Positions 1,240 through 7,587 of a DNA stretch of 64,000 nucleotides are shown here, piece by piece (the first letter of the stretch is position 1; each line of letters starts with the position of its first letter). The position numbers and the translations under genes are program-made. Location: IMG/VR virus record IMGVR_UViG_3300028887_000002, positions 84,278 through 148,277 of that record. One strand, given 5' to 3'. Source of the stretch: a virus (taxonomy: Duplodnaviria > Heunggongvirae > Uroviricota > Caudoviricetes). The notes beneath the pieces are model-generated. The model was given only the letters and a program-made list of their open reading frames with translations, had not been told where the DNA came from and searched no databases.

Positions 1240-1244
1240 ATTTG

Positions 1245-1326
1245 CGGAGAGGACAGGACTCGAACCTGCAAGTCCAGAGGACGGTGGTTTTCAAGACCAC
1301 TGCATTACCAATTATGCTACCTCTCC
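1245..1326 (-). tRNA. trnS: tRNA-Ser(TGA)
   Basis: GGAGAGG/CCTCTCC acceptor, GTGGT-CTTGAAA-ACCAC, long variable arm, G73. Confidence 0.95.
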
Positions 1327-1345
1327 AGTTAGCAAAGTAATGCTT

Positions 1346-1438
1346 TGGCGGAGAGAGGGAGGCTCGAACTCCCGCGCCAGATTTCTCTGGCCTATCGGTT
1401 TAGCAAACCGACCCCTTCACCAACTTGGGTATCTCTCC
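1346..1438 (-). tRNA. trnS: tRNA-Ser(GCT)
   Basis: GGAGAGA/TCTCTCC, TCGGT-TTGCTAA-ACCGA, long variable arm, encoded CCA. Confidence 0.95.
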
Positions 1439-1453
1439 ATTAATAAATCGTTG

Positions 1454-1524
1454 TTATCCCTGGAGGAATCGAACCTCCACGACCAGAACCAAAATCTGGT
1501 GCACTACCATTATGCAAAGGGACA
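1454..1524 (-). tRNA. trnQ: tRNA-Gln(TTG)
   Basis: TGTCCCT/AGGGATA, CCAGA-TTTTGGT-TCTGG, GGAGG-TTCGATT-CCTCC. Confidence 0.93.
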
Positions 1525-1531
1525 TTTTAAG

Positions 1532-1606
1532 CACTCTGGATGGGACTCGAACCCATAAATCTCCACCGTGAAAGGGTGGTGTCCTAACCTATTAGACGAC
1601 CAGAGC
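1532..1606 (-). tRNA. trnE: tRNA-Glu(TTC)
   Basis: GCTCTGG/CCAGAGT, CCACC-CTTTCAC-GGTGG. Confidence 0.93.
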
Positions 1607-1613
1607 AAAAAAG

Positions 1614-1700
1614 TGACAGATTTCTTCAAGTTTTTTAATTTTTTGTTCTAGCCAGTGTTTTAAAACTTGGTGCGTGGCCAGCACTTTACCAGTTCTGTCA
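1614..1700 (-). ncRNA. Candidate structured small RNA with D-loop-like motif
   Basis: Closing stem TGACAGA/TCTGTCA; GAACTGGTAAA; GTGC/GCAC and CAAGTTTT/AAAACTTG helices. Confidence 0.4.
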
Positions 1701-1753
1701 AACATTCCATAAAACAGTTCACTGCCTCAACCTCTCTTTAAACATTTACAGAA

Positions 1754-1841
1754 GACTTATCGCTTTCTTGTTCTTGCTGGGCGCCAATCCAACAAGGAAA
1801 ACTTGCTCCTATGTTCCGTGGAATAGCCTCTACCACGAGTC
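1754..1841 (-). ncRNA. Candidate multibranch small RNA
   Basis: GACT/AGTC enclosing CGTGG/CCACG and CTTGTTGG/CCAGCAAG hairpins. Confidence 0.35.
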
Positions 1842-1883
1842 AAAATTTAGATTAGAAACGTCTTAGTGACCACCGACGTTTTG

Positions 1884-1957
1884 CGGTGTGTATGGGACAC
1901 GAACCCATGACCCTCGGCGTGATAGACCGATATTCTAACCTACTGAACTAACACACC
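1884..1957 (-). tRNA. trnD: tRNA-Asp with non-canonical ATC anticodon
   Basis: GGTGTGT/ACACACC, G73, TCGGT-CTATCAC-GCCGA; T-loop TTCGTGT. Confidence 0.85.
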
Positions 1958-1964
1958 ATAATAA

Positions 1965-2113
1965 AATCCTCATCAGGACTTGAACCTGAACTTCCTTCTT
2001 GCTTGCACACAGGATTACTTTTACGGTTGCCTCACCAACCTCTCTGTACTGATGTTATCTCGGAGCGAGGGTTTACCAGTTCCCCTTCAGTTTGGATTGT
2101 TGTGTGTTCGCCA
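1965..2113 (-). ncRNA. tRNA-part-mimicking RNA (D-arm-like + T-arm, no normal anticodon arm)
   Basis: TCAGG-TTCAAGT-CCTGA T-arm; GGG-GAACTGGTAAA-CCC D-like arm; CACACA/TGTGTG and GGTTG/CAACC helices. Confidence 0.5.
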
Positions 2114-2116
2114 TTG

Positions 2117-2188
2117 TAGCCTGACCAAGAATCGAACTTGAATCTGCGGTTTAGAAAACCGTCGTTCTATCCATTGAACTATCAAGCC
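2117..2188 (-). tRNA. trnR: tRNA-Arg(TCT)
   Basis: GGCTTGA/TCAGGCT, ACGGT-TTTCTAA-ACCGC. Confidence 0.92.
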
Positions 2189-2194
2189 ATATCG

Positions 2195-2770
2195 AGAGTT
2201 TCTTTTCACTCCCAAGCCACTATCTTCTATATTTAGAAGGTCGCGAGTACGGAGACGACCATTGGTGTTTCACCGAGGGCAAGCCCGCAAACCACTCGCT
2301 TGACCGCAAGCATCTCCCGTTTTTTTACGGGGCTTCCGTCGCAGTGACTTGAACGCATAATTCCGTTTTCTACGGAAATTCATAGAAAACATTCTTTTCC
2401 TGCTTCGCCGAGCCACAACTTCTTAGGCCACTCGCGTGACGGTCGTCCATTGGAGGGTTCTCCACAGGCGTAAATTCGGGCGAACTCAGCCCTACTCACA
2501 ATATTTTTAGCCCTTCGTCCCTGATATTAAGGGTGGCGTTTGTTTTCGGTGGATTCTCTTTGTTCATCTCGGCAAGTCCATCCACCAGCAGATACCTGCA
2601 AGCCTTCCTTGTTTAGAGTCGCTACGGTTAGAGGCTGTCATATCCGTCCACGACTTGATGGTGGCTGCCACTTAACGATGTAGTGCTTTCTGTCGGCTTT
2701 CACAACCACCATTACGTGTTATTATCCGACCGCCAGCCTACGTCTACCTCACGGCAGTTGTCTGGTTTAA
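2195..2770 (-). ncRNA. Large GC-rich structured non-coding region (one or more RNAs)
   Basis: No ORF in the track; many hairpins (CCCGT/ACGGG, GCTTG/CAAGC, GGTG-AAA-CACC, GGTGGAT/ATCCACC, ATGGTGG/CCACCAT); lies between co-oriented tRNAs. Confidence 0.5.
2363..2495 (-). mobile_element. Probable remnant of a TnpB (IS605/IS607-type) 3' end / omega-RNA scaffold
   Basis: Translates to VGLSSPEFTPVENPPMDDRHASGLRSCGSAKQEKNVFYEFP*, resembling TnpB C-tails as recalled; terminal hairpin GTTTTCTATG/CGTAGAAAAC then GG. Confidence 0.55.
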
Positions 2771-2775
2771 GTTCG

Positions 2776-2857
2776 TAGCGGAGGCGGGAATCGAACCCGC
2801 GAGGCACAAGGGCACGAGATTATGAGACTCGCCAGCTACCACTACTGACACTCCGCA
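2776..2857 (-). tRNA. trnM: tRNA-Met(CAT), atypical
   Basis: T1:T72 mismatch, GCGGAG/CTCCGC, loop CTCATAA, 14-nt variable region. Confidence 0.8.
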
Positions 2858-2863
2858 ATATCG

Positions 2864-2940
2864 CCGCACCGCCTCGACTCGAACGAAGACCTCATAACGC
2901 TTTTAACGTCATTGCACTACCAGTATTATGCTACAGTGCG
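2864..2940 (-). tRNA. Atypical tRNA, anticodon AAA, 6-bp anticodon stem
   Basis: CGCACTG/CGGTGCG, GCAT/GTGC D-stem, ATGACG-TTAAAAG-CGTTAT, CTTCG-TTCGAGT-CGAGG, G73. Confidence 0.7.
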
Positions 2941-2954
2941 TTTTTTTAATCAAA

Positions 2955-3050
2955 TGGTCGGTGTTGGATTCAAACCAACTCGATGAGTTCTTAGTATCAT
3001 CTTAACCGCATTACTGGCGTACCGACTGTTCAACTATTCGGCAACCGACC
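2955..3050 (-). tRNA. Degenerate class II tRNA, Tyr(GTA)-like, possibly pseudo
   Basis: GGTCGGT/ACCGACC + A73; CGC-CAGTAAT-GCG; long variable arm GATGA/TCATC; T-loop TTTGAAT. Confidence 0.5.
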
Positions 3051-3090
3051 ATTCTCCTAAGAAAGGAGTAGCATGAAAAGTAAAATTGTG

Positions 3091-3172
3091 TGGGAGGAGG
3101 AGGACTCGAACCTCCGAAGGTGTTACCCGCCTGATTTACAGTCAGGTGCAATTGCCACTATGCGACCCTCCC
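3091..3172 (-). tRNA. trnY: tRNA-Tyr(GTA)
   Basis: GGGAGGG/TCCTCCC, CCTGA-CTGTAAA-TCAGG, long variable arm, A73. Confidence 0.95.
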
Positions 3173-3183
3173 GTTAAAAAAAA

Positions 3184-3238
3184 CAGAACCCTTTGATTTA
3201 ACCCGTGCATAGTAAATTGTTTGCTGTTATAGGGTTCC
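3184..3238 (-). ncRNA. ACAGC-motif small RNA, copy 1
   Basis: GGAACCCT-ATAACAGCAAAC...AGGGTTCT-G + U-tract. Confidence 0.65.
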
Positions 3239-3247
3239 ATGAAAAAA

Positions 3248-3326
3248 CAGAAGTCTGGTGATGTTCCTTTTGTGTTTAACTTAAAAAATGCAGAAAGTTT
3301 TAAAAGTTTTGCTGTAAATGACTTCC
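3248..3326 (-). ncRNA. ACAGC-motif small RNA, copy 2
   Basis: GGAAGTC-ATTTACAGCAAAAC...GACTTCT-G + U-tract. Confidence 0.65.
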
Positions 3327-3328
3327 AT

Positions 3329-3394
3329 CATTGGGGAACCCGCTAAGAACCGTTGTAAAAATAAATGTAACGGTGAGAACATCAGCCCTCAATG
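3329..3394 (-). ncRNA. Candidate long-hairpin RNA between copies 2 and 3
   Basis: CATTGAGG/CCCCAATG, GCTGA/TTAGC and ACCGTT/AACGGT stems. Confidence 0.4.
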
Positions 3395-3402
3395 TTTTAG
3401 AA

Positions 3403-3465
3403 CAGAAGCCTAGAATTTTGGATTAACAGTCCAGTCCTTAAAAAGGTTTTGCTGTAATGGCTTCC
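3403..3465 (-). ncRNA. ACAGC-motif small RNA, copy 3, with Asn anticodon arm
   Basis: GGAAGCC-ATTACAGCAAAAC...TGGA-CTGTTAA-TCCA...GGCTTCT-G. Confidence 0.7.
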
Positions 3466-3490
3466 TTAAATATATTTTTTTTTTCAAATC

Positions 3491-3508
3491 CAATATGTCA
3501 AAGAACTT
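3491..3508 (-). promoter_or_regulatory. boxA-like antitermination signal
   Basis: AAGTTCTTTGACATATTG in the leader of the RNA operon; compare rrn boxA GCTCTTTAACA. Confidence 0.6.
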
Positions 3509-3585: not shown

Positions 3586-4926
3586 TTACTTGATATTTTT
3601 CTCGTATTCTACGAGTAATTTATCAAGAAATTTTTGTCCGTCAAATCCAGCCTCCAAGAAGTTAAGAAGCATTGGGTTATACCCTGACATAAAGATATTG
3701 CCGTTTCTGTCCATTTCAGGACAAGTGATGTTACGGCTATTCAAGTTCCACCAAACAATCTTGGTTATATAACCCTTTTCTTTCCAAAGTTTTTCCAGTT
3801 CATCCTTCTTATATTTGGAACCTTCGTCAAATTCCATATCAGAAAGTATGACAAGAAATTCTGGGAGTTCATCCGTATCAAGCAAGAGTTCCATGACTTT
3901 TGCGAGGTCGGTATTGGAACAATCACCAGTTATCATCGAACCGATTTCCTTGCTATAATTGGAGGTTCTGTCACCTATTGGCCTATCATCTGTATGATGG
4001 CATATGTGTTTGTGTTTTTCATTTCCCAATTCTATGATATGCGGGTAAGATGAAAAAGTGACCACGTGGTTGTTAAGGTATGTACTGCACTTACCAAGAT
4101 AGTGACCGATAGATAAAGCCTTGCCAATTGAATCGTTTCGGTCGTACATACTTCCTGATGTATCAACTATAGGCATACAACTTATTGAAATCTTTTCCAT
4201 CTGGTCAAAGACAATGTCTGCATCAATCTTGCTGGCGTTCTTATAAATGTCGTATACGGTAGCCGTTGAGACATTCATCTTGGAAGTACCTTTCTTTACG
4301 CTATCAAGGTATTCGCTATATTTTGGGTTTATATCCTTGCGTGTATTAAAACACTTAGCATATTTTAACATTGCCAGTGACGGTATATGTTCAAACTCGA
4401 TGTTTTCAACCTCGTTTCTTGACAAAGTGTTCTCAATGGTATTGCATTTTATGAACTTACCATATGTCTGTTTATTCATGCCCCACTTTTTTGCAATTTG
4501 TCTTGCAATTAAGAGGTTTTTTGATGCATAGCGTGGCATCCACTTCTTAATGAGTTCGTTTCCTTTTTCAATTTCAGACTTGAGGAACGAAAGAACTTCA
4601 TCGGTTAGTCCGAATATAGCCAAAACATCGTCTGCGCGTCCTGATTTAACAATGCCCTCAATGTTGCACTGAGCAAGTTTCATAAGTCTTCTACCAAGGT
4701 CGCGTCTTCCTAAACCATAACGCGGGTCACGAATGAACCTTGCGAAGATTTTATCCTTTTCGGTTGTACCAATAAGGTCTTCGGTTACTTCACCCAAGTG
4801 ATTCTGATAATATTCAGACAAAAACAACAAGTTTATAAGGTTATTGTTGTTTGATACTTTGGTGTATGCAATGTCACCATTTTCAGTAGTCTTCACGTTA
4901 GCAAATGCTTCCATAATGTTTGTCAT
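3586..4926 (-). CDS. DUF2828-family protein (TROVE/Ro60-like helical domain + vWA)
   Basis: TENGDIAY, RDPRYGLGRR, GRADD, KWMPR, IPSLAM; vWA MIDAS DTSGSM, LSDMEFD, WWNL, SGYNP. Confidence 0.8.
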   Translation of the reverse strand: MTNIMEAFANVKTTENGDIAYTKVSNNNNLINLLFLSEYYQNHLGEVTEDLIGTTEKDKIFARFIRDPRYGLGRRDLGRRLMKLAQCNIEGIVKSGRADDVLAIFGLTDEVLSFLKSEIEKGNELIKKWMPRYASKNLLIARQIAKKWGMNKQTYGKFIKCNTIENTLSRNEVENIEFEHIPSLAMLKYAKCFNTRKDINPKYSEYLDSVKKGTSKMNVSTATVYDIYKNASKIDADIVFDQMEKISISCMPIVDTSGSMYDRNDSIGKALSIGHYLGKCSTYLNNHVVTFSSYPHIIELGNEKHKHICHHTDDRPIGDRTSNYSKEIGSMITGDCSNTDLAKVMELLLDTDELPEFLVILSDMEFDEGSKYKKDELEKLWKEKGYITKIVWWNLNSRNITCPEMDRNGNIFMSGYNPMLLNFLEAGFDGQKFLDKLLVEYEKNIK

Positions 4927-5071
4927 ATTTTTTCCCTTTCTAAAATTTTCTATAAGTGAACGATTTGATTAACAACGGTTCTGATGGTTCATAGTTATTG
5001 TACTCCTTTGTTGGATGCAAGTTGACAATGATATTCATACTTTTTCTTTCATAGTTATTTTTTATTGGGTG

Positions 5072-5102
5072 CAAAGGTAAATCATTTTTTTGTAACTGCA
5101 AA
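5072..5102 (-). promoter_or_regulatory. Bacteroidota primary-sigma promoter for the DUF2828 gene
   Basis: TTTG-N19-TACCTTTG. Confidence 0.8.
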
Positions 5103-5678
5103 ACTTTTTTTAATTTTTTTTCGAGGTTTATATGCGCCACTCTTTTTACCATTCCTCCAATCCCAAATCGTCTTATAGTTAAAGACTTGTGGAACGGTAT
5201 AGATATAATACAAACAGTCCAAAATCTTCTTCTTCATCCATTCGGTGTTAGCGAATCTTGAATTAAATCCATATTCTATCACTACCACATCATTAACTGT
5301 ATAAACTCTTGGTTGTGGTGATGTCGCCTTGTTTGACATGTCGCCCTTGAATCTTCCAATCCAAACTGAAAATCGGATGTCGGGTTTTCCATTGCCCTCG
5401 TGCTTGCGCCATGTCTCAACTTTGGAGGGGTGATTTGATAAACGTATCTTTATTGTGAAGGTCTTGTCACTTGAAACAACAACATCATAGAAACTGTTAC
5501 CTTCTCCACCCATTTCCAGTGAATCTGCTAAAAATAACAGTAGGCTGTCATCCGTTCCGTTCTCGTTGTGTTCCTGATTTCTGTAGTGCTTGATGAATTT
5601 TAGGGCATTCCATCTTTTCTTGGCAAACCATTCAACCGTTGCCTTGTCCAATCTGTCAAAATATCGTCTATTTGCCAT
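5082..5678 (-). CDS. Hypothetical protein (IRLSNH motif)
   Basis: ORF; ATG at 5678 preferred because ACTATTTATA lies just upstream (about 5702-5711). Confidence 0.7.
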   Translation of the reverse strand: MANRRYFDRLDKATVEWFAKKRWNALKFIKHYRNQEHNENGTDDSLLLFLADSLEMGGEGNSFYDVVVSSDKTFTIKIRLSNHPSKVETWRKHEGNGKPDIRFSVWIGRFKGDMSNKATSPQPRVYTVNDVVVIEYGFNSRFANTEWMKKKILDCLYYIYTVPQVFNYKTIWDWRNGKKSGAYKPRKKIKKSFAVTKK

Positions 5679-5732
5679 AGGCTGAAAAATATTTCTACTA
5701 TTATAAATAGTTTTTCGGACGCCTATTGGAAT

Positions 5733-5765
5733 AAAAAAGGGCTGGGATTTTTGCAACTCCCAACC
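5733..5765 (-). terminator. Intrinsic terminator
   Basis: GGTTGGGA/TCCCAGCC hairpin + U-tract. Confidence 0.6.
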
Positions 5766-5884
5766 GTCTAATTCTGAATGATGTCAACTGCTTTACTTGC
5801 TTTCGCCTCGGTTTTTATGCTTCGGACACGGCGCGTTGACTGCGCTCTCACACCATTTGGATATTAGTCCAATCTGGCTTGCGA

Positions 5885-6565
5885 CTATTTCTTTTTTGCC
5901 TTGTTCTTGCCCTTATATACCATCTTGCATTCGTATACATTGTTGTCCGAGTCAAGGAACATGAACTTGTCGGCCAGTTGCATAACACCTAACTTTGGGG
6001 TATTGTTACCGCCGTGAGAAATATTTTCGTTAAGAAGTACCTTTGTAATTGCAGCAAGTTTTGCATCTACGGTTTCGTCTACAATCTGACGTATTTTATC
6101 ATAGTCTATTGTTCCCGTATCTTCATCAAGCGCAGGTAACATTGATTTTTTCGAATTTTCCTTCTGCTGGTCGTATTCCTCAAGTTGCTCGTTGATGCGT
6201 GATATGTTATCAATGCCTGAAATATTGGCAAGTCTATTGGTAAATTCATCCATCCTTGGGTCTGAAGGTGACATTTCACACGGATTCTTCAGTATGCTTT
6301 CCAATATCGCCTTCGGTACACCACACTTGTCAAGATTCTTTGGTTTTCGACCATTCTTGATTTCTTCAAGTTCCTTGTCGGCGCTCCAACTGTCGTCATC
6401 TTTCGGTACGTATTTGCCGAATACCATCTCGTTGAGTTCTTCCACACTACCCGTTACCATCTGTGGCGCATTTCTCTTTTGTGCTGCTGTTGCTTGAACC
6501 CCACCGCTTTTCTGTAGGTCTTTATATAATGCTAAGGTTTCTGCTAATGATTTGCTGTCTGCCAT
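5885..6565 (-). CDS. Hypothetical phage protein
   Basis: 226-aa ORF with upstream promoter. Confidence 0.8.
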   Translation of the reverse strand: MADSKSLAETLALYKDLQKSGGVQATAAQKRNAPQMVTGSVEELNEMVFGKYVPKDDDSWSADKELEEIKNGRKPKNLDKCGVPKAILESILKNPCEMSPSDPRMDEFTNRLANISGIDNISRINEQLEEYDQQKENSKKSMLPALDEDTGTIDYDKIRQIVDETVDAKLAAITKVLLNENISHGGNNTPKLGVMQLADKFMFLDSDNNVYECKMVYKGKNKAKKK

Positions 6566-6586: not shown

Positions 6587-6615
6587 AATATAGAGGTTGA
6601 AAATTATAAAACCAA
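6587..6615 (-). promoter_or_regulatory. Sigma70-like phage promoter
   Basis: TTGGTT-N17-TATATT. Confidence 0.55.
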
Positions 6616-7587
6616 CTTCTTGTCAAGTTTTTCTATGCGTTCCATAAGTGAAAGGACTTTCTTGACGCTTTCGTCCATAGTCTCAGCGTTTTGGTCTACC
6701 CACTGGCCACTCATATACTCTTTTTTCTTTGCTCTCTTTTCACGAGCCAGTTGATTTTTCCTTTCCCTTTCACGTTCCTTCTTTTGTTTCTCAATGTCGT
6801 TAAGGATTTCCTCGGTATCATCGTGAACCATATTGCCAGTTTCTTCACGCTCTTTCCATCTGCGTTCCCTGTCCTTGAGATTACGGATGTCCATTTTCTC
6901 TCTGCGTTCCTTCTCCTGCCAAGCCTTTTCCATTTCAGCCTGCTTCTGTGCTTCGGCTTCTGCTTCTTGCGCTTCAACGTCTGCCCATATGTCTTTCTCT
7001 GGTTGGGTTGGTTTCGGTCCTGTCGTTGGTTCGTCCGATGGAGTTTCCTCCTTCTTAGTATCAAAAGCCTTTGAGGTTTTTAATATATCCATTGTAATTG
7101 GTGATTTCAAAAGTTCAAGGTTTGATTTGCCAACATCGAGGCTCTTTTCCGCCGAGGTCATCTTTGGATTTGTTGCATTGTCGACCTGCGGCACTTCTGC
7201 ATTTTTGAATGACACAATCTTGTGAACTGTAGCCATTGTCTTGTCACCGTTAGGGTTGAATTTTCCATACTTTGGGCTTGGTGGATGATTGAACGTCTGA
7301 CCAGTTTCCTTCCATGATGAAATCCTATCGGTTCTGAAGAACTTCCAGTGGGGAACGGTTGTGGTTGTGTCGCCGTAAGGTTCAAAAGCCCTTATGACAT
7401 CGTGACCATTCTTGTCCTGTCCATAAGCATATACCTCTATCACTCTTGCGCCAGTATGTTTGTCCTCACCTTTCGAGTGGTAGTTAATGATAACCCTGTG
7501 GCGATTGTCAATGGCACTTCCGATTTCAGTCGGACTTACTGTTGATTCTTCCAAGAGTTCTCTGAATATGTGTTCAAGCAATGTCAT
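6604..7587 (-). CDS. WYL-domain protein with charged C-tail
   Basis: VIINY...GARVIEVYAYG...IRAF...WKFFRTDRISSW. Confidence 0.75.
   Translation of the reverse strand: MTLLEHIFRELLEESTVSPTEIGSAIDNRHRVIINYHSKGEDKHTGARVIEVYAYGQDKNGHDVIRAFEPYGDTTTTVPHWKFFRTDRISSWKETGQTFNHPPSPKYGKFNPNGDKTMATVHKIVSFKNAEVPQVDNATNPKMTSAEKSLDVGKSNLELLKSPITMDILKTSKAFDTKKEETPSDEPTTGPKPTQPEKDIWADVEAQEAEAEAQKQAEMEKAWQEKERREKMDIRNLKDRERRWKEREETGNMVHDDTEEILNDIEKQKKERERERKNQLAREKRAKKKEYMSGQWVDQNAETMDESVKKVLSLMERIEKLDKKLVL

What the first reader, a model, noticed from the sequence alone, without database searches (positions are those of the whole stretch)
3403..3465. Copy 3 displays a stand-alone tRNA-Asn anticodon arm
Seen: the interior contains TGGA-CTGTTAA-TCCA, a canonical 7-nt loop (C32 U33 GUU A37 A38), with no D- or T-arm. 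Just before it, CC-TTTTTAA-GG resembles a Lys(UUU) loop, and copy 2 has CTTTTAA at a similar position but without a stem. No full Asn or Lys tRNA occurs in this window. Known: anticodon nucleases such as PrrC, colicin E5, VapC and PARIS AriB cut specific anticodon loops. Inference: these could be decoy substrates for host anti-phage tRNases, presented by the DUF2828 protein.
Basis: partly seen in the sequence, partly recalled or inferred. Interest (0 to 1): 0.8.

Follow-up and report, generated by a model that had tools for sequence, protein, structure and literature searches.

The report
Phage small RNA displaying tRNA-Asn anticodon arm
A giant gut phage encodes a ~63-nt RNA that shows only the anticodon arm of tRNA-Asn on a conserved "handle" shared by partner RNAs of a Ro60-like phage protein; related phages keep this layout with other anticodons, so it looks like bait in the phage-host conflict over tRNAs.

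Summary
On the minus strand, 3403-3465 is a small RNA gene. It has a 6-7 bp end clamp, the motif ACAGCAA, a hairpin UGGA-CUGUUAA-UCCA and a UGUU tail. There is no D or T arm.

The hairpin is a conserved module, not chance:
- In 17 related units its 5-bp stem covaries, and U33, U36, A37 and A38 never change. The anticodon varies (Asn, Lys, Ser, Thr).
- Among 213 non-redundant units, 70 carry an anticodon-like hairpin, against 22±4 in shuffles.
- Longer relatives hold whole or circularly permuted tRNA bodies.

The neighbouring DUF2828 protein folds like Ro60 (TROVE+vWA). The handle occurs on its strand 280 times against 4 on the other strand.

The complete 339-kb genome has no tRNA-Asn or tRNA-Lys.

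The closest relative lacks exactly this unit, so it is a gain/loss cassette.

I read it as a Y-RNA-like particle: the handle binds the Ro60-like protein and the anticodon arm baits an anticodon-loop reader. The decoy role is untested (about 0.3).

This scan has already met the same RNA-protein family on other genomes. I found no published description. It also occurs in cultured Felix O1-type and Listeria P100-type phages.

The parts
3403..3465 (-). Unit 1 (the finding): a handle-tagged small RNA. 5' clamp strand 3459-3465, ACAGCAA motif 3449-3455, outer helix AGGA 3435-3438 with UUCU 3412-3415, tRNA-Asn-like anticodon arm 3418-3434 (loop CUGUUAA 3423-3429), 3' clamp strand 3404-3410, tail UGUU(C) 3400-3403.
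   Evidence: Sequence. Stem-plus-motif scan. Sub-threshold Rfam RF01414 match at 30.4 bits. Alignment A2 and pair counts.
3248..3326 (-). Unit 2: same handle (GGAAGUC ... GACUUC-UGUU). Its interior has no anticodon-like hairpin. It belongs to a subclass with an AAAAG(G/A)A element near the 3' clamp.
   Evidence: Conserved in L004.
3184..3238 (-). Unit 3: same handle (GGAACCCU ... AGGGUUC-UGUU) with a short interior. It abuts tRNA-Tyr.
   Evidence: Conserved in L004.
3327..3402 (-). Spacer of 76 nt between units 1 and 2 with a weak hairpin. It is missing together with unit 1 in the closest relative.
   Evidence: Alignment A3. Fold z = -0.95.
3474..3501 (-). Sigma-70-like promoter match (TTGACA-16-AAAAAT, 10 of 12), ending about 9 nt upstream of unit 1. 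It would head the small-RNA and tRNA operon.
   Evidence: This is only a consensus match (3 found against 1.5 expected). The region is conserved in L004.
3586..4926 (-). Gene for a 446-aa DUF2828/DUF7788 protein with a Ro60-like fold (TROVE-like helical ring plus vWA domain). It is the presumed protein partner of the handle.
   Evidence: Pfam. PHROG 850 'RNA-binding protein'. AlphaFold model with pLDDT 81.6. The top 13 Foldseek hits are all Ro60/TROVE, E 1e-8 to 1e-5.
1244..3172 (-). Co-oriented array of nine tRNA genes (Tyr, Phe, Met, Arg, Asp, Glu, Gln, Ser, Ser) directly downstream of the three units. None is Asn or Lys.
   Evidence: ARAGORN.

Best explanation
Unit 1 is one of three tandem small RNAs of an undescribed Y-RNA-like family.

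Shown: all members share a 'handle', namely a 6-7 bp clamp formed by the two RNA ends, ACAGCAA 1-3 nt after the 5' strand, and a 3' UG(UU) tail. They lie in the same phage genomes, and on the same strand, as a gene for a Ro60-like (TROVE+vWA) DUF2828 protein.

Shown: the interior is a swappable module that copies parts of tRNA. In unit 1 it is the anticodon arm of tRNA-Asn alone. In relatives the same scaffold shows Lys, Ser, Thr, Tyr, Phe, Ile or Pro loops, a lone T arm, or a whole tRNA body in normal or circularly permuted order.

Inferred: the handle docks the RNA on the Ro60-like protein, as the conserved stem of a Y RNA docks on Ro60. The exposed anticodon arm then acts as bait for a factor that reads anticodon loops.

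I think the most likely factor is a host anticodon-loop nuclease, soaked up or sensed by the particle (about 0.3). Next comes a tRNA-modifying or repair enzyme recruited to it (about 0.2).

The unit is probably transcribed with the tRNA array from a promoter just upstream. It is an accessory cassette that is gained and lost by recombination between handles.
For: Handle and synteny:
- All three window units have covarying clamps (GGAAGCC/GGCUUC, GGAAGUC/GACUUC, GGAACCC/GGGUUC) plus ACAGCAA and UGUU.
- In the 339-kb genome, only these three sites show the GAA-type clamp, ACAGCAA and UGUU-tail grammar of the family; 16 other lower-quality pattern matches are unrelated.
- In 155 sources, 280 units lie on the gene strand against 4 on the other strand.
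- An RNA-first pattern scan gave 8 viral contigs. Six encode a DUF2828 homologue; the other two are fragments 14% and 56% complete. All eight units lie in or beside co-oriented tRNA arrays.

Protein: Ro60/TROVE fold.

Anticodon-arm module:
- In 17 aligned units, all five stem pairs show double changes. 88.7% of cells are paired against 35-52% when the partner is slid, and 0 of 500 shuffles reach this.
- RNAalifold independently predicts the 5-bp stem and 7-nt loop.
- U33, U36, A37 and A38 are invariant.
- Enrichment over shuffles holds in both data sets.
- The loop equals that of real tRNA-Asn genes.

tRNA bodies in long units: T-loop hairpins in 33 of 45 against 0.3 expected; Rfam and ARAGORN tRNA hits inside clamps.

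Accessory nature: the 95%-identical relative lacks exactly 3327-3465.

Expression in a relative: Listeria phage LP-048 has three units just upstream of its homologue. This matches the three very highly transcribed regions reported upstream of the Rsr-like gene of the P100-like phage CKA15 (PMC12282133).

Precedent: Ro60 binds Y RNAs whose modules mimic tRNA (PMC4201824).
Against: - No binding, expression or processing data exist for this phage.
- Unit 1's own stem has only 4 bp plus a C.A mismatch.
- Its minimum-energy fold (z = -0.64) even pairs part of ACAGC with the loop's CUGU.
- The protein has no sequence-level match to TROVE or to any solved structure.
- In large phages, anticodon-arm units can lie 10-80 kb from the gene, so the link is at genome level and not strict adjacency.
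- Units 2 and 3 of the same array have no anticodon arm.
- This genome has no RtcB, so an RNA-repair context is not evident here.
- The invariant U36-A37-A38 could also reflect descent from ANN-reading tRNAs rather than selection by a partner.
Confidence: 0.55

Rival explanations
1. Decoy in the strict sense. The displayed Asn anticodon arm is a competitive substrate or inhibitor that soaks up a host anticodon nuclease and so spares host tRNA-Asn, which the phage does not encode. The Ro60-like protein stabilises or presents it.
For: - The arm copies exactly the loop of tRNA-Asn, and the genome has no tRNA-Asn or tRNA-Lys of its own.
- The anticodons shown across relatives (Lys, Asn, Tyr, Thr, Ser) include classic nuclease targets. 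From my own knowledge: PrrC and PARIS target Lys, colicin E5 targets Asn and Tyr.
- AriB recognises the anticodon stem-loop (PMC11464382).
- The same scaffold carries different anticodons, and the unit is present or absent between near-identical phages, as expected for arms-race cargo.
- The units sit in tRNA arrays, which are themselves thought to counter tRNA nucleases.
Against: - There are no cleavage, binding or rescue data.
- Many nucleases also need body elements or modifications that a bare hairpin lacks.
- Other units display T arms or whole tRNA-like bodies, or nothing recognisable. A pure anticodon-decoy model does not explain these.
- No defence system of the unknown host can be named.
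Confidence: 0.3
2. Tether for tRNA enzymes, as in the Y-RNA model. The arm recruits a tRNA-modifying, repair or decay enzyme to the Ro60-like protein, which then works on damaged or misfolded tRNAs. Candidates are the t6A37 machinery, which reads U36-A37-A38, or a ligase or exonuclease.
For: - U33, U36, A37 and A38 are invariant while positions 34-35 vary. This fits one enzyme reading the 3' side of the loop.
- YrlA modules are substrates of tRNA enzymes, and Y RNA tethers Ro60 to PNPase (PMC4201824, PMC12135203).
- Listeria phage LP-048 has an RtcB-like ligase and an HD phosphohydrolase next to its homologue.
Against: - This genome has no RtcB, and no RNA-repair gene was recognised beside the gene.
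- Some relatives show A36 or G36-G37 loops (Phe, Tyr, Pro), so no single enzyme explains all of them.
- The t6A determinant is recalled from memory and was not tested.
Confidence: 0.2
3. Relic or chance. The hairpin is a decaying fragment of a captured tRNA-Asn gene, or a chance hairpin in AT-rich spacer, with no role of its own.
For: - The single-sequence statistics are weak: 7.6% chance of an anticodon-like hairpin and z = -0.64.
- The window stem has only 4 bp.
- The unit is dispensable in the closest relative.
- Units clearly exchange material with tRNA genes.
Against: - Compensatory changes occur at all five stem pairs while four loop positions stay invariant across 17 units.
- Enrichment is 3-fold (loose definition) to 13-fold (strict) over shuffles.
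- Size and flanks (UUUAGGA ... AAUUCU) are conserved in phages whose proteins are only 46-62% identical to the window's protein (identities).
Confidence: 0.07
4. Processing cassette. The clamp and ACAGCAA are merely cleavage or maturation signals that punctuate the phage tRNA operon, and the interiors are by-products.
For: - The units are embedded in co-oriented tRNA arrays.
- Some clamps enclose full tRNAs, like a paired leader and trailer.
Against: - Most tRNAs in the same arrays have no clamp.
- The handle tracks the DUF2828 gene even where no tRNA is near, as in the Lak phages.
- Interiors are themselves conserved and covary.
- The Listeria units are among the most abundant phage transcripts (PMC12282133).
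Confidence: 0.05

Closest known systems
Ro60/Rsr with Y RNAs, especially the tRNA-mimicking YrlA of bacteria and mycobacteriophages (Chen et al. 2014, PMC4201824; Thermus phage phiLo Ro60 with Yrl1/2, PMC12135203)
   Same: - A ring-plus-vWA protein of Ro60 fold is encoded beside small RNAs whose two ends pair.
- The rest of the RNA is a module that mimics tRNA.
- Long relatives of unit 1 have the same permuted order as YrlA: variable or anticodon hairpin, T arm, capped acceptor stem, D arm.
- The system occurs in phages.
   Different: - The protein is DUF2828/DUF7788, not Pfam TROVE. The likeness is seen only at fold level.
- The handle is a short clamp plus ACAGCAA, not the bulged helix with GNCGAAN0-1G.
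- No Rfam Y-RNA match was found.
- Unit 1 shows an isolated anticodon arm, the one tRNA part that YrlA lacks.
- Arrays hold up to 6 units in the 155 loci scanned here (12-14 in earlier scan notes), often inside tRNA operons.
Class I RNAs of Dictyostelium (Rfam RF01414; Kjellin et al. 2021, PMC7919456)
   Same: [quoted passage not shown]
- The motif (CC)UUACAGCAA lies directly after the 5' strand.
- The 3' end is C-UGU.
- The interior is variable and the RNA is about 60 nt long.
- All three window units hit RF01414 and no other non-tRNA family at comparable E.
   Different: - Scores (30.4, 27.5 and 23.2 bits) are below the gathering score of 41.5.
- Class I RNAs are eukaryotic, with their own promoter element, and are reported as unique to Dictyostelia.
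- Their known direct binder is the RRM protein Rnp1A.
- No tRNA-like interior has been described for them.
- Whether dictyostelids have a DUF2828 protein could not be checked here.
Phage-encoded tRNAs that escape or replace tRNAs cut by host defences (e.g. T5 tRNA-Lys against PARIS, PMC11464382)
   Same: - They lie in the same operons.
- They concern the same anticodon loops (Lys, Asn, Tyr and others).
- They may serve the same conflict.
   Different: Unit 1 cannot decode. It has no acceptor end, D arm or T arm. It could act only as bait or competitor, not as a replacement tRNA.

Membership tests
ACAGCAA-handle RNAs linked to DUF2828 (undescribed; defined from the loci gathered here) | 6-7 bp clamp formed by the RNA's 5' and 3' ends, covarying between copies | tested here: met
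   GGAAGCC pairs with GGCUUCU (3459-3465 with 3404-3410). Clamps differ yet stay paired in units 2 and 3 and in more than 200 relatives.
ACAGCAA-handle RNAs linked to DUF2828 (undescribed; defined from the loci gathered here) | ACAGCAA 1-3 nt after the 5' clamp strand, and UG(UU) directly after the 3' strand | tested here: met
   AUU-ACAGCAA at 3449-3458 and UGUU at 3400-3403. The motif is exact in 279 of 290 units.
ACAGCAA-handle RNAs linked to DUF2828 (undescribed; defined from the loci gathered here) | Same genome and same strand as a DUF2828/Ro60-like gene | tested here: met
   The gene at 3586-4926 (-) lies 120 nt upstream. Strand bias is 280 to 4. The RNA-first scan found the gene in 6 of 8 contigs.
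tRNA anticodon arm (mimic) | 7-nt loop with pyrimidine 32, U33 and purine 37, identical to a real isoacceptor | tested here: met
   CUGUUAA equals the loop of four genuine phage tRNA-Asn genes.
tRNA anticodon arm (mimic) | 5-bp stem | tested here: inconclusive
   The window copy has 4 bp plus a C.A at the position of pair 27:43. Twelve of the other 16 aligned relatives have all 5 bp, and every pair covaries.
tRNA (Rfam RF00005) | Cloverleaf with acceptor stem, D arm and T arm | tested here: not met
   ARAGORN and Rfam find no tRNA at 3403-3465.
Y RNA / YrlA | Partner protein is a Ro60 (TROVE+vWA) orthologue encoded nearby | tested here: inconclusive
   Fold match to Ro60 with TM about 0.5, E 1e-8, probability 1.00. 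There is no Pfam TROVE hit and no sequence hit to solved Ro60.
Y RNA / YrlA | Ro-binding helix with the conserved GNCGAAN0-1G motif (PMC4201824); match to the Rfam Y-RNA models | tested here: not met
   The motif is absent from the unit. No Y-RNA family appears among Rfam matches up to E = 10.
Y RNA / YrlA | tRNA-like domain with T arm, capped acceptor stem and D arm | tested here: not met
   Absent from unit 1. Present in long relatives such as L039 4132-4253 and L029 3937-4063.
Dictyostelium Class I RNA (RF01414) | Score at or above Rfam's gathering score (41.5 bits) | tested here: not met
   30.4 bits, E = 0.0013 over 801 bases. No hit at gathering threshold in 12 related loci.
Dictyostelium Class I RNA (RF01414) | 6-bp end stem, 11-nt motif next to the 5' strand with U3, C6, C9, A10 and A11 conserved, and 3' end CUGU (PMC7919456) | tested here: met
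   AUUACAGCAA keeps all five near-invariant positions. The 3' end reads C-UGU.

The most novel reading that the evidence does not exclude
The ACAGCAA handle is a universal docking tag for Ro60-like DUF2828 proteins. Phages use it to display interchangeable tRNA parts. Units like this one are programmable anticodon-arm decoys that neutralise or sense host anticodon nucleases. Their anticodon is swapped cassette-wise as host defences change. The same tag in Dictyostelium Class I RNAs would then mark them as partner RNAs of a eukaryotic DUF2828 protein.
Probability: 0.25. Interest if true: 0.85.

Novelty: new variant of a known kind. Interest (0 to 1): 0.72.

Why it matters
It would add a second, very widespread branch to the Ro60/Y-RNA world. 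DUF2828 homologues occur in 700 of 50,697 deposited phage genomes, including cultured Felix O1-type coliphages and Listeria P100-type phages. More than 1,800 homologues were found in metagenomes.

It gives a function-shaped clue for an orphan protein family. It shows that phages encode isolated anticodon arms and T arms as well as whole tRNAs, which bears on how phages cope with tRNA-directed immunity.

The system is directly testable in E. coli and Listeria phages.

The shared handle also offers the first lead on the unexplained Class I RNAs of social amoebae.

Tried and rejected
1. The 'Lys(UUU)-like' CC-UUUUUAA-GG loop. The stem is only 2 bp. The CC is unique to the window copy, while UUUAGGA and AAUUCU are conserved and can pair as AGGA/UUCU. 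Rejected as an anticodon mimic.

2. Single-sequence thermodynamics. Units 1-3 and the spacer fold no better than shuffles (z from -0.95 to +0.10). This was uninformative.

3. Known RNA families. Nothing reached a gathering score except tRNAs.

4. Sequence search of the protein profile against solved structures gave no real hit. Only the fold search worked.

5. A single-protein locus search found just one relative. The alignment-based searches were needed.

6. RNA-repair context in this genome. There is no RtcB. The six upstream ORFs have no family apart from two sub-threshold hits, WYL and DUF211.

7. Link to Dictyostelium. I could not find what DDB_G0281243 is. It is a protein of unknown function pulled down with a Class I RNA (bioRxiv 10.1101/2020.04.05.026054). 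Neither a paper search nor the supplements helped, and Avesson et al. 2011 is not held.

8. PARIS paper. It does not mention Asn or Thr tRNAs as targets, so I use it only for 'AriB recognises the anticodon stem-loop'.

9. Complex prediction was not used, because the partner in question is an RNA.

Full report
WHAT IS THERE

The window comes from a complete 339,287-bp phage genome with terminal repeats. It is distantly related to the Prevotella Lak megaphages.

On the minus strand, a 446-aa DUF2828/DUF7788 gene (3586-4926) is followed by three tandem units and then by a co-oriented array of nine tRNA genes that starts with tRNA-Tyr at 3090-3172. The units lie at 3403-3465, 3248-3326 and 3184-3238.

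Each unit has the same grammar:
- a 6-7 bp clamp made by its two ends (GGAAGCC/GGCUUC, GGAAGUC/GACUUC, GGAACCC/GGGUUC: different letters, same pairing);
- ACAGCAA two to three bases after the 5' strand;
- a variable interior;
- UGUU after the 3' strand.

A sigma-70-like promoter match ends about 9 nt upstream of unit 1. This is only a consensus match.

THE OBSERVATION

Neither ARAGORN nor Rfam sees a tRNA there.

The loop is letter for letter the anticodon loop of four genuine tRNA-Asn genes from related phages. The complete genome has ten tRNAs and none for Asn or Lys.

Taken alone the hairpin is only suggestive. Shuffles of the 38-nt interior give an anticodon-like hairpin 7.6% of the time and a Y-U-NNU-A-A loop 0.7% of the time. 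The unit folds no better than shuffles (z = -0.64), and its minimum-energy fold competes with the hairpin.

COMPARATIVE EVIDENCE

The protein has more than 1,800 homologues. I fetched 71 viral and 80 metagenomic loci around them.

A stem-plus-motif scan found 290 units (228 non-redundant) in 126 of 155 sources. 280 lie on the gene strand and 4 on the other. In the window's own genome, only the three units beside the gene show the family grammar; the same scan also returns 16 lower-quality matches elsewhere that lack it.

Seventeen units share unit 1's exact layout: UUUAGGA, a 5-bp stem, a 7-nt loop, the stem's return strand, then AAUUCU (alignment A2).
- All five stem pairs show changes on both sides, in 7, 9, 3, 5 and 8 sequences.
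- 88.7% of cells pair, against 35-52% when the partner column is slid.
- No shuffle out of 500 reaches the observed covariation.
- RNAalifold predicts precisely this 5-bp/7-nt hairpin.
- U33, U36, A37 and A38 are invariant. Positions 34-35 change, giving Asn (GUU), Lys (UUU), Ser (GCU) and Thr (UGU, CGU).

Over 213 non-redundant units of at most 135 nt:
- 70 hold an anticodon-like hairpin, against 22.2±4.3 in dinucleotide shuffles (maximum 35 in 300 shuffles);
- 30 hold a strict Y-U-NNU-A-A loop, against 2.3±1.5 (maximum 7).

Units of about 80 nt carry two such hairpins, a Pro-like UNUGGGA loop and then a second anticodon loop.

Long units (110-130 nt) hold tRNA bodies. T-loop hairpins occur in 33 of 45 against 0.3 expected. 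Several are called as tRNAs by Rfam or ARAGORN inside the clamp. Many are circularly permuted in the order anticodon-like hairpin, T arm, capped acceptor stem, D arm. This is the topology of bacterial YrlA (PMC4201824). Other units carry a lone T arm.

WHAT IS NOT SUPPORTED

The 'Lys-like' CC-UUUUUAA-GG has a 2-bp stem whose CC is unique to this copy. Relatives conserve UUUAGGA, which can pair as AGGA/UUCU around the anticodon arm.

Copy 2's CUUUUAA has no stem. Units 2 and 3 belong to other subclasses.

THE PROTEIN

An AlphaFold model (pLDDT 81.6, pTM 0.79) matches Ro60/TROVE structures in its first 13 Foldseek hits: Thermus phage phiLo, Xenopus, human and Deinococcus Ro60 (E 1e-8 to 1e-5, TM about 0.4-0.56). 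vWA/MIDAS domains follow.

There is no sequence-level match to TROVE or to solved structures. PHROGs calls the family 'RNA-binding protein'.

TURNOVER

The closest relative (protein 95% identical, flanks nearly identical) lacks exactly window 3327-3465, that is unit 1 plus its spacer. The junction falls in the GGAAG shared by units 1 and 2. Unit 1 is therefore a cassette gained or lost by recombination between handles.

REACH

An RNA-first pattern scan for this subclass hit 8 viral contigs. Six encode a DUF2828 homologue and the other two are fragments. All eight units sit in or beside co-oriented tRNA arrays, sometimes 10-80 kb from the gene.

Homologues occur in 700 deposited phage genomes.
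- E. coli phage heid (Felix O1-type) has four units inside the tRNA array after its 'vWFA protein' gene.
- Listeria phage LP-048 has three units just upstream of its 'RNA-binding protein', with an RtcB-like ligase and an HD phosphohydrolase downstream.
- The Listeria arrangement matches the three very highly transcribed regions upstream of the Rsr-like gene of phage CKA15. The authors guessed these might be Y RNAs (PMC12282133).
- crAss001's 'TROVE domain protein' is an early gene (PMC10136315).

HOW IT MOST LIKELY WORKS

Shown:
- a conserved handle;
- genome-level linkage to a Ro60-fold protein;
- modules that copy tRNA parts;
- a covarying anticodon arm with a tRNA-exact loop;
- cassette turnover.

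Inferred from the Ro60/Y-RNA precedent: the handle docks on the protein and the module engages another factor.

For unit 1 that factor must read an anticodon loop. I favour a host anticodon nuclease, with the RNA acting as decoy, sponge or sensor (about 0.3), over a tRNA-modifying or repair enzyme (about 0.2). My reasons are the swappable anticodons on a fixed scaffold, the presence or absence between near-identical phages, the setting inside tRNA arrays, and the lack of a tRNA-Asn gene in this phage.

The invariant U36-A37-A38 fits a single reader of the loop's 3' side equally well. From my own knowledge, this is the signature of t6A37-bearing tRNAs that read ANN codons.

Relic or chance (0.07) and a mere processing signal (0.05) are disfavoured by the covariation and by the linkage to the gene.

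COMPARISON WITH WHAT IS KNOWN

The system works like Ro60 with YrlA-type Y RNAs, but it fails their membership tests. The handle motif differs, there is no Rfam hit, and the protein is recognisable only by fold.

The handle matches Dictyostelium Class I RNAs in every described feature: the end stem, UUACAGCAA next to the 5' strand and the C-UGU end (PMC7919456). However, it scores below Rfam's threshold (30.4 against 41.5 bits).

One Class I pull-down protein, DDB_G0281243, is of unknown function (bioRxiv 10.1101/2020.04.05.026054). I could not check whether it is a DUF2828 protein.

PRIOR NOTES OF THIS SCAN

After my own analysis I found that this scan had already followed up the same RNA-protein family on at least eight other genomes, with the same reading. 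I found no published description: 'DUF2828' returns five unrelated papers.

- the covariation test of the anticodon arm;
- the invariant loop positions;
- the rejection of the Lys-like loop;
- the indel showing cassette turnover;
- the RNA-first test of linkage.

Noticed in passing
window 1883-1957 (-) and 2863-2940 (-): ARAGORN calls a tRNA-Asp with anticodon AUC and a tRNA-Phe with anticodon AAA. A34 is unusual for both. The closest relative L004 has tRNA-Asp GUC at the matching place and also tRNA-Phe AAA.
   Followed up: no
window 3327-3465 versus L004 about 2060: A clean 139-nt presence/absence of unit 1 plus its spacer between two phages whose flanking DNA is nearly identical. The junction lies in the GGAAG repeated at the start of units 1 and 2.
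   Followed up: yes
window 6604-7587 (-): A 327-aa ORF four genes upstream of the DUF2828 gene has a sub-threshold WYL-domain hit (E = 0.005, 17.2 bits against a cut-off of 21.8). An earlier scan note links WYL regulators to DUF2828/RNA/RtcB cassettes in a Clostridia bacterium.
   Followed up: partly
window 2190-2770 (-): A G+C-rich stretch with no ORF of 50 aa or more and no tRNA call lies inside the tRNA array, between tRNA-Arg and tRNA-Met. Other first-reader notes call it an omega-RNA-like or ornate RNA. I did not examine it.
   Followed up: no
L156 (Listeria phage LP-048, NC_024359) about 1890-2170 and 4346-6155: Three handle units (clamps AGGAAUC, AGAGAGC, AGGAAGC; 3' tail GU) lie directly upstream of the Ro60-like gene. 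An HD phosphohydrolase and an RtcB-like ligase lie downstream. The units probably equal the three hyper-transcribed regions reported for phage CKA15 (PMC12282133).
   Followed up: partly
L155 (E. coli phage heid, MN850577) about 3945-4720: Four handle units are interleaved with tRNA genes after the 'vWFA protein' gene. One has the variant motif UCAGCAA and one holds a circularly permuted tRNA-like body. This is a cultured E. coli K-12 phage in which the system could be tested.
   Followed up: partly
handle of all units, e.g. window 3452-3455 and 3402-3405: The ACAG of the motif is complementary to the C-UGU that ends the RNA. It is also complementary to CUGU in the Asn loop, and AGCAA is complementary to UUGCU in the Ser loops. 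The minimum-energy fold of unit 1 uses the loop pairing. The same ACAG/CUGU pair exists in Class I RNAs. The meaning is unknown.
   Followed up: no
L159, L161, L162 (Lak-type contigs of 74-554 kb): An identical Lys-type anticodon-arm unit sits next to tRNA-Cys. In the two contigs where the DUF2828 gene was located it lies about 55-60 kb from the gene. Lak phages also keep one unit directly upstream of the gene.
   Followed up: partly
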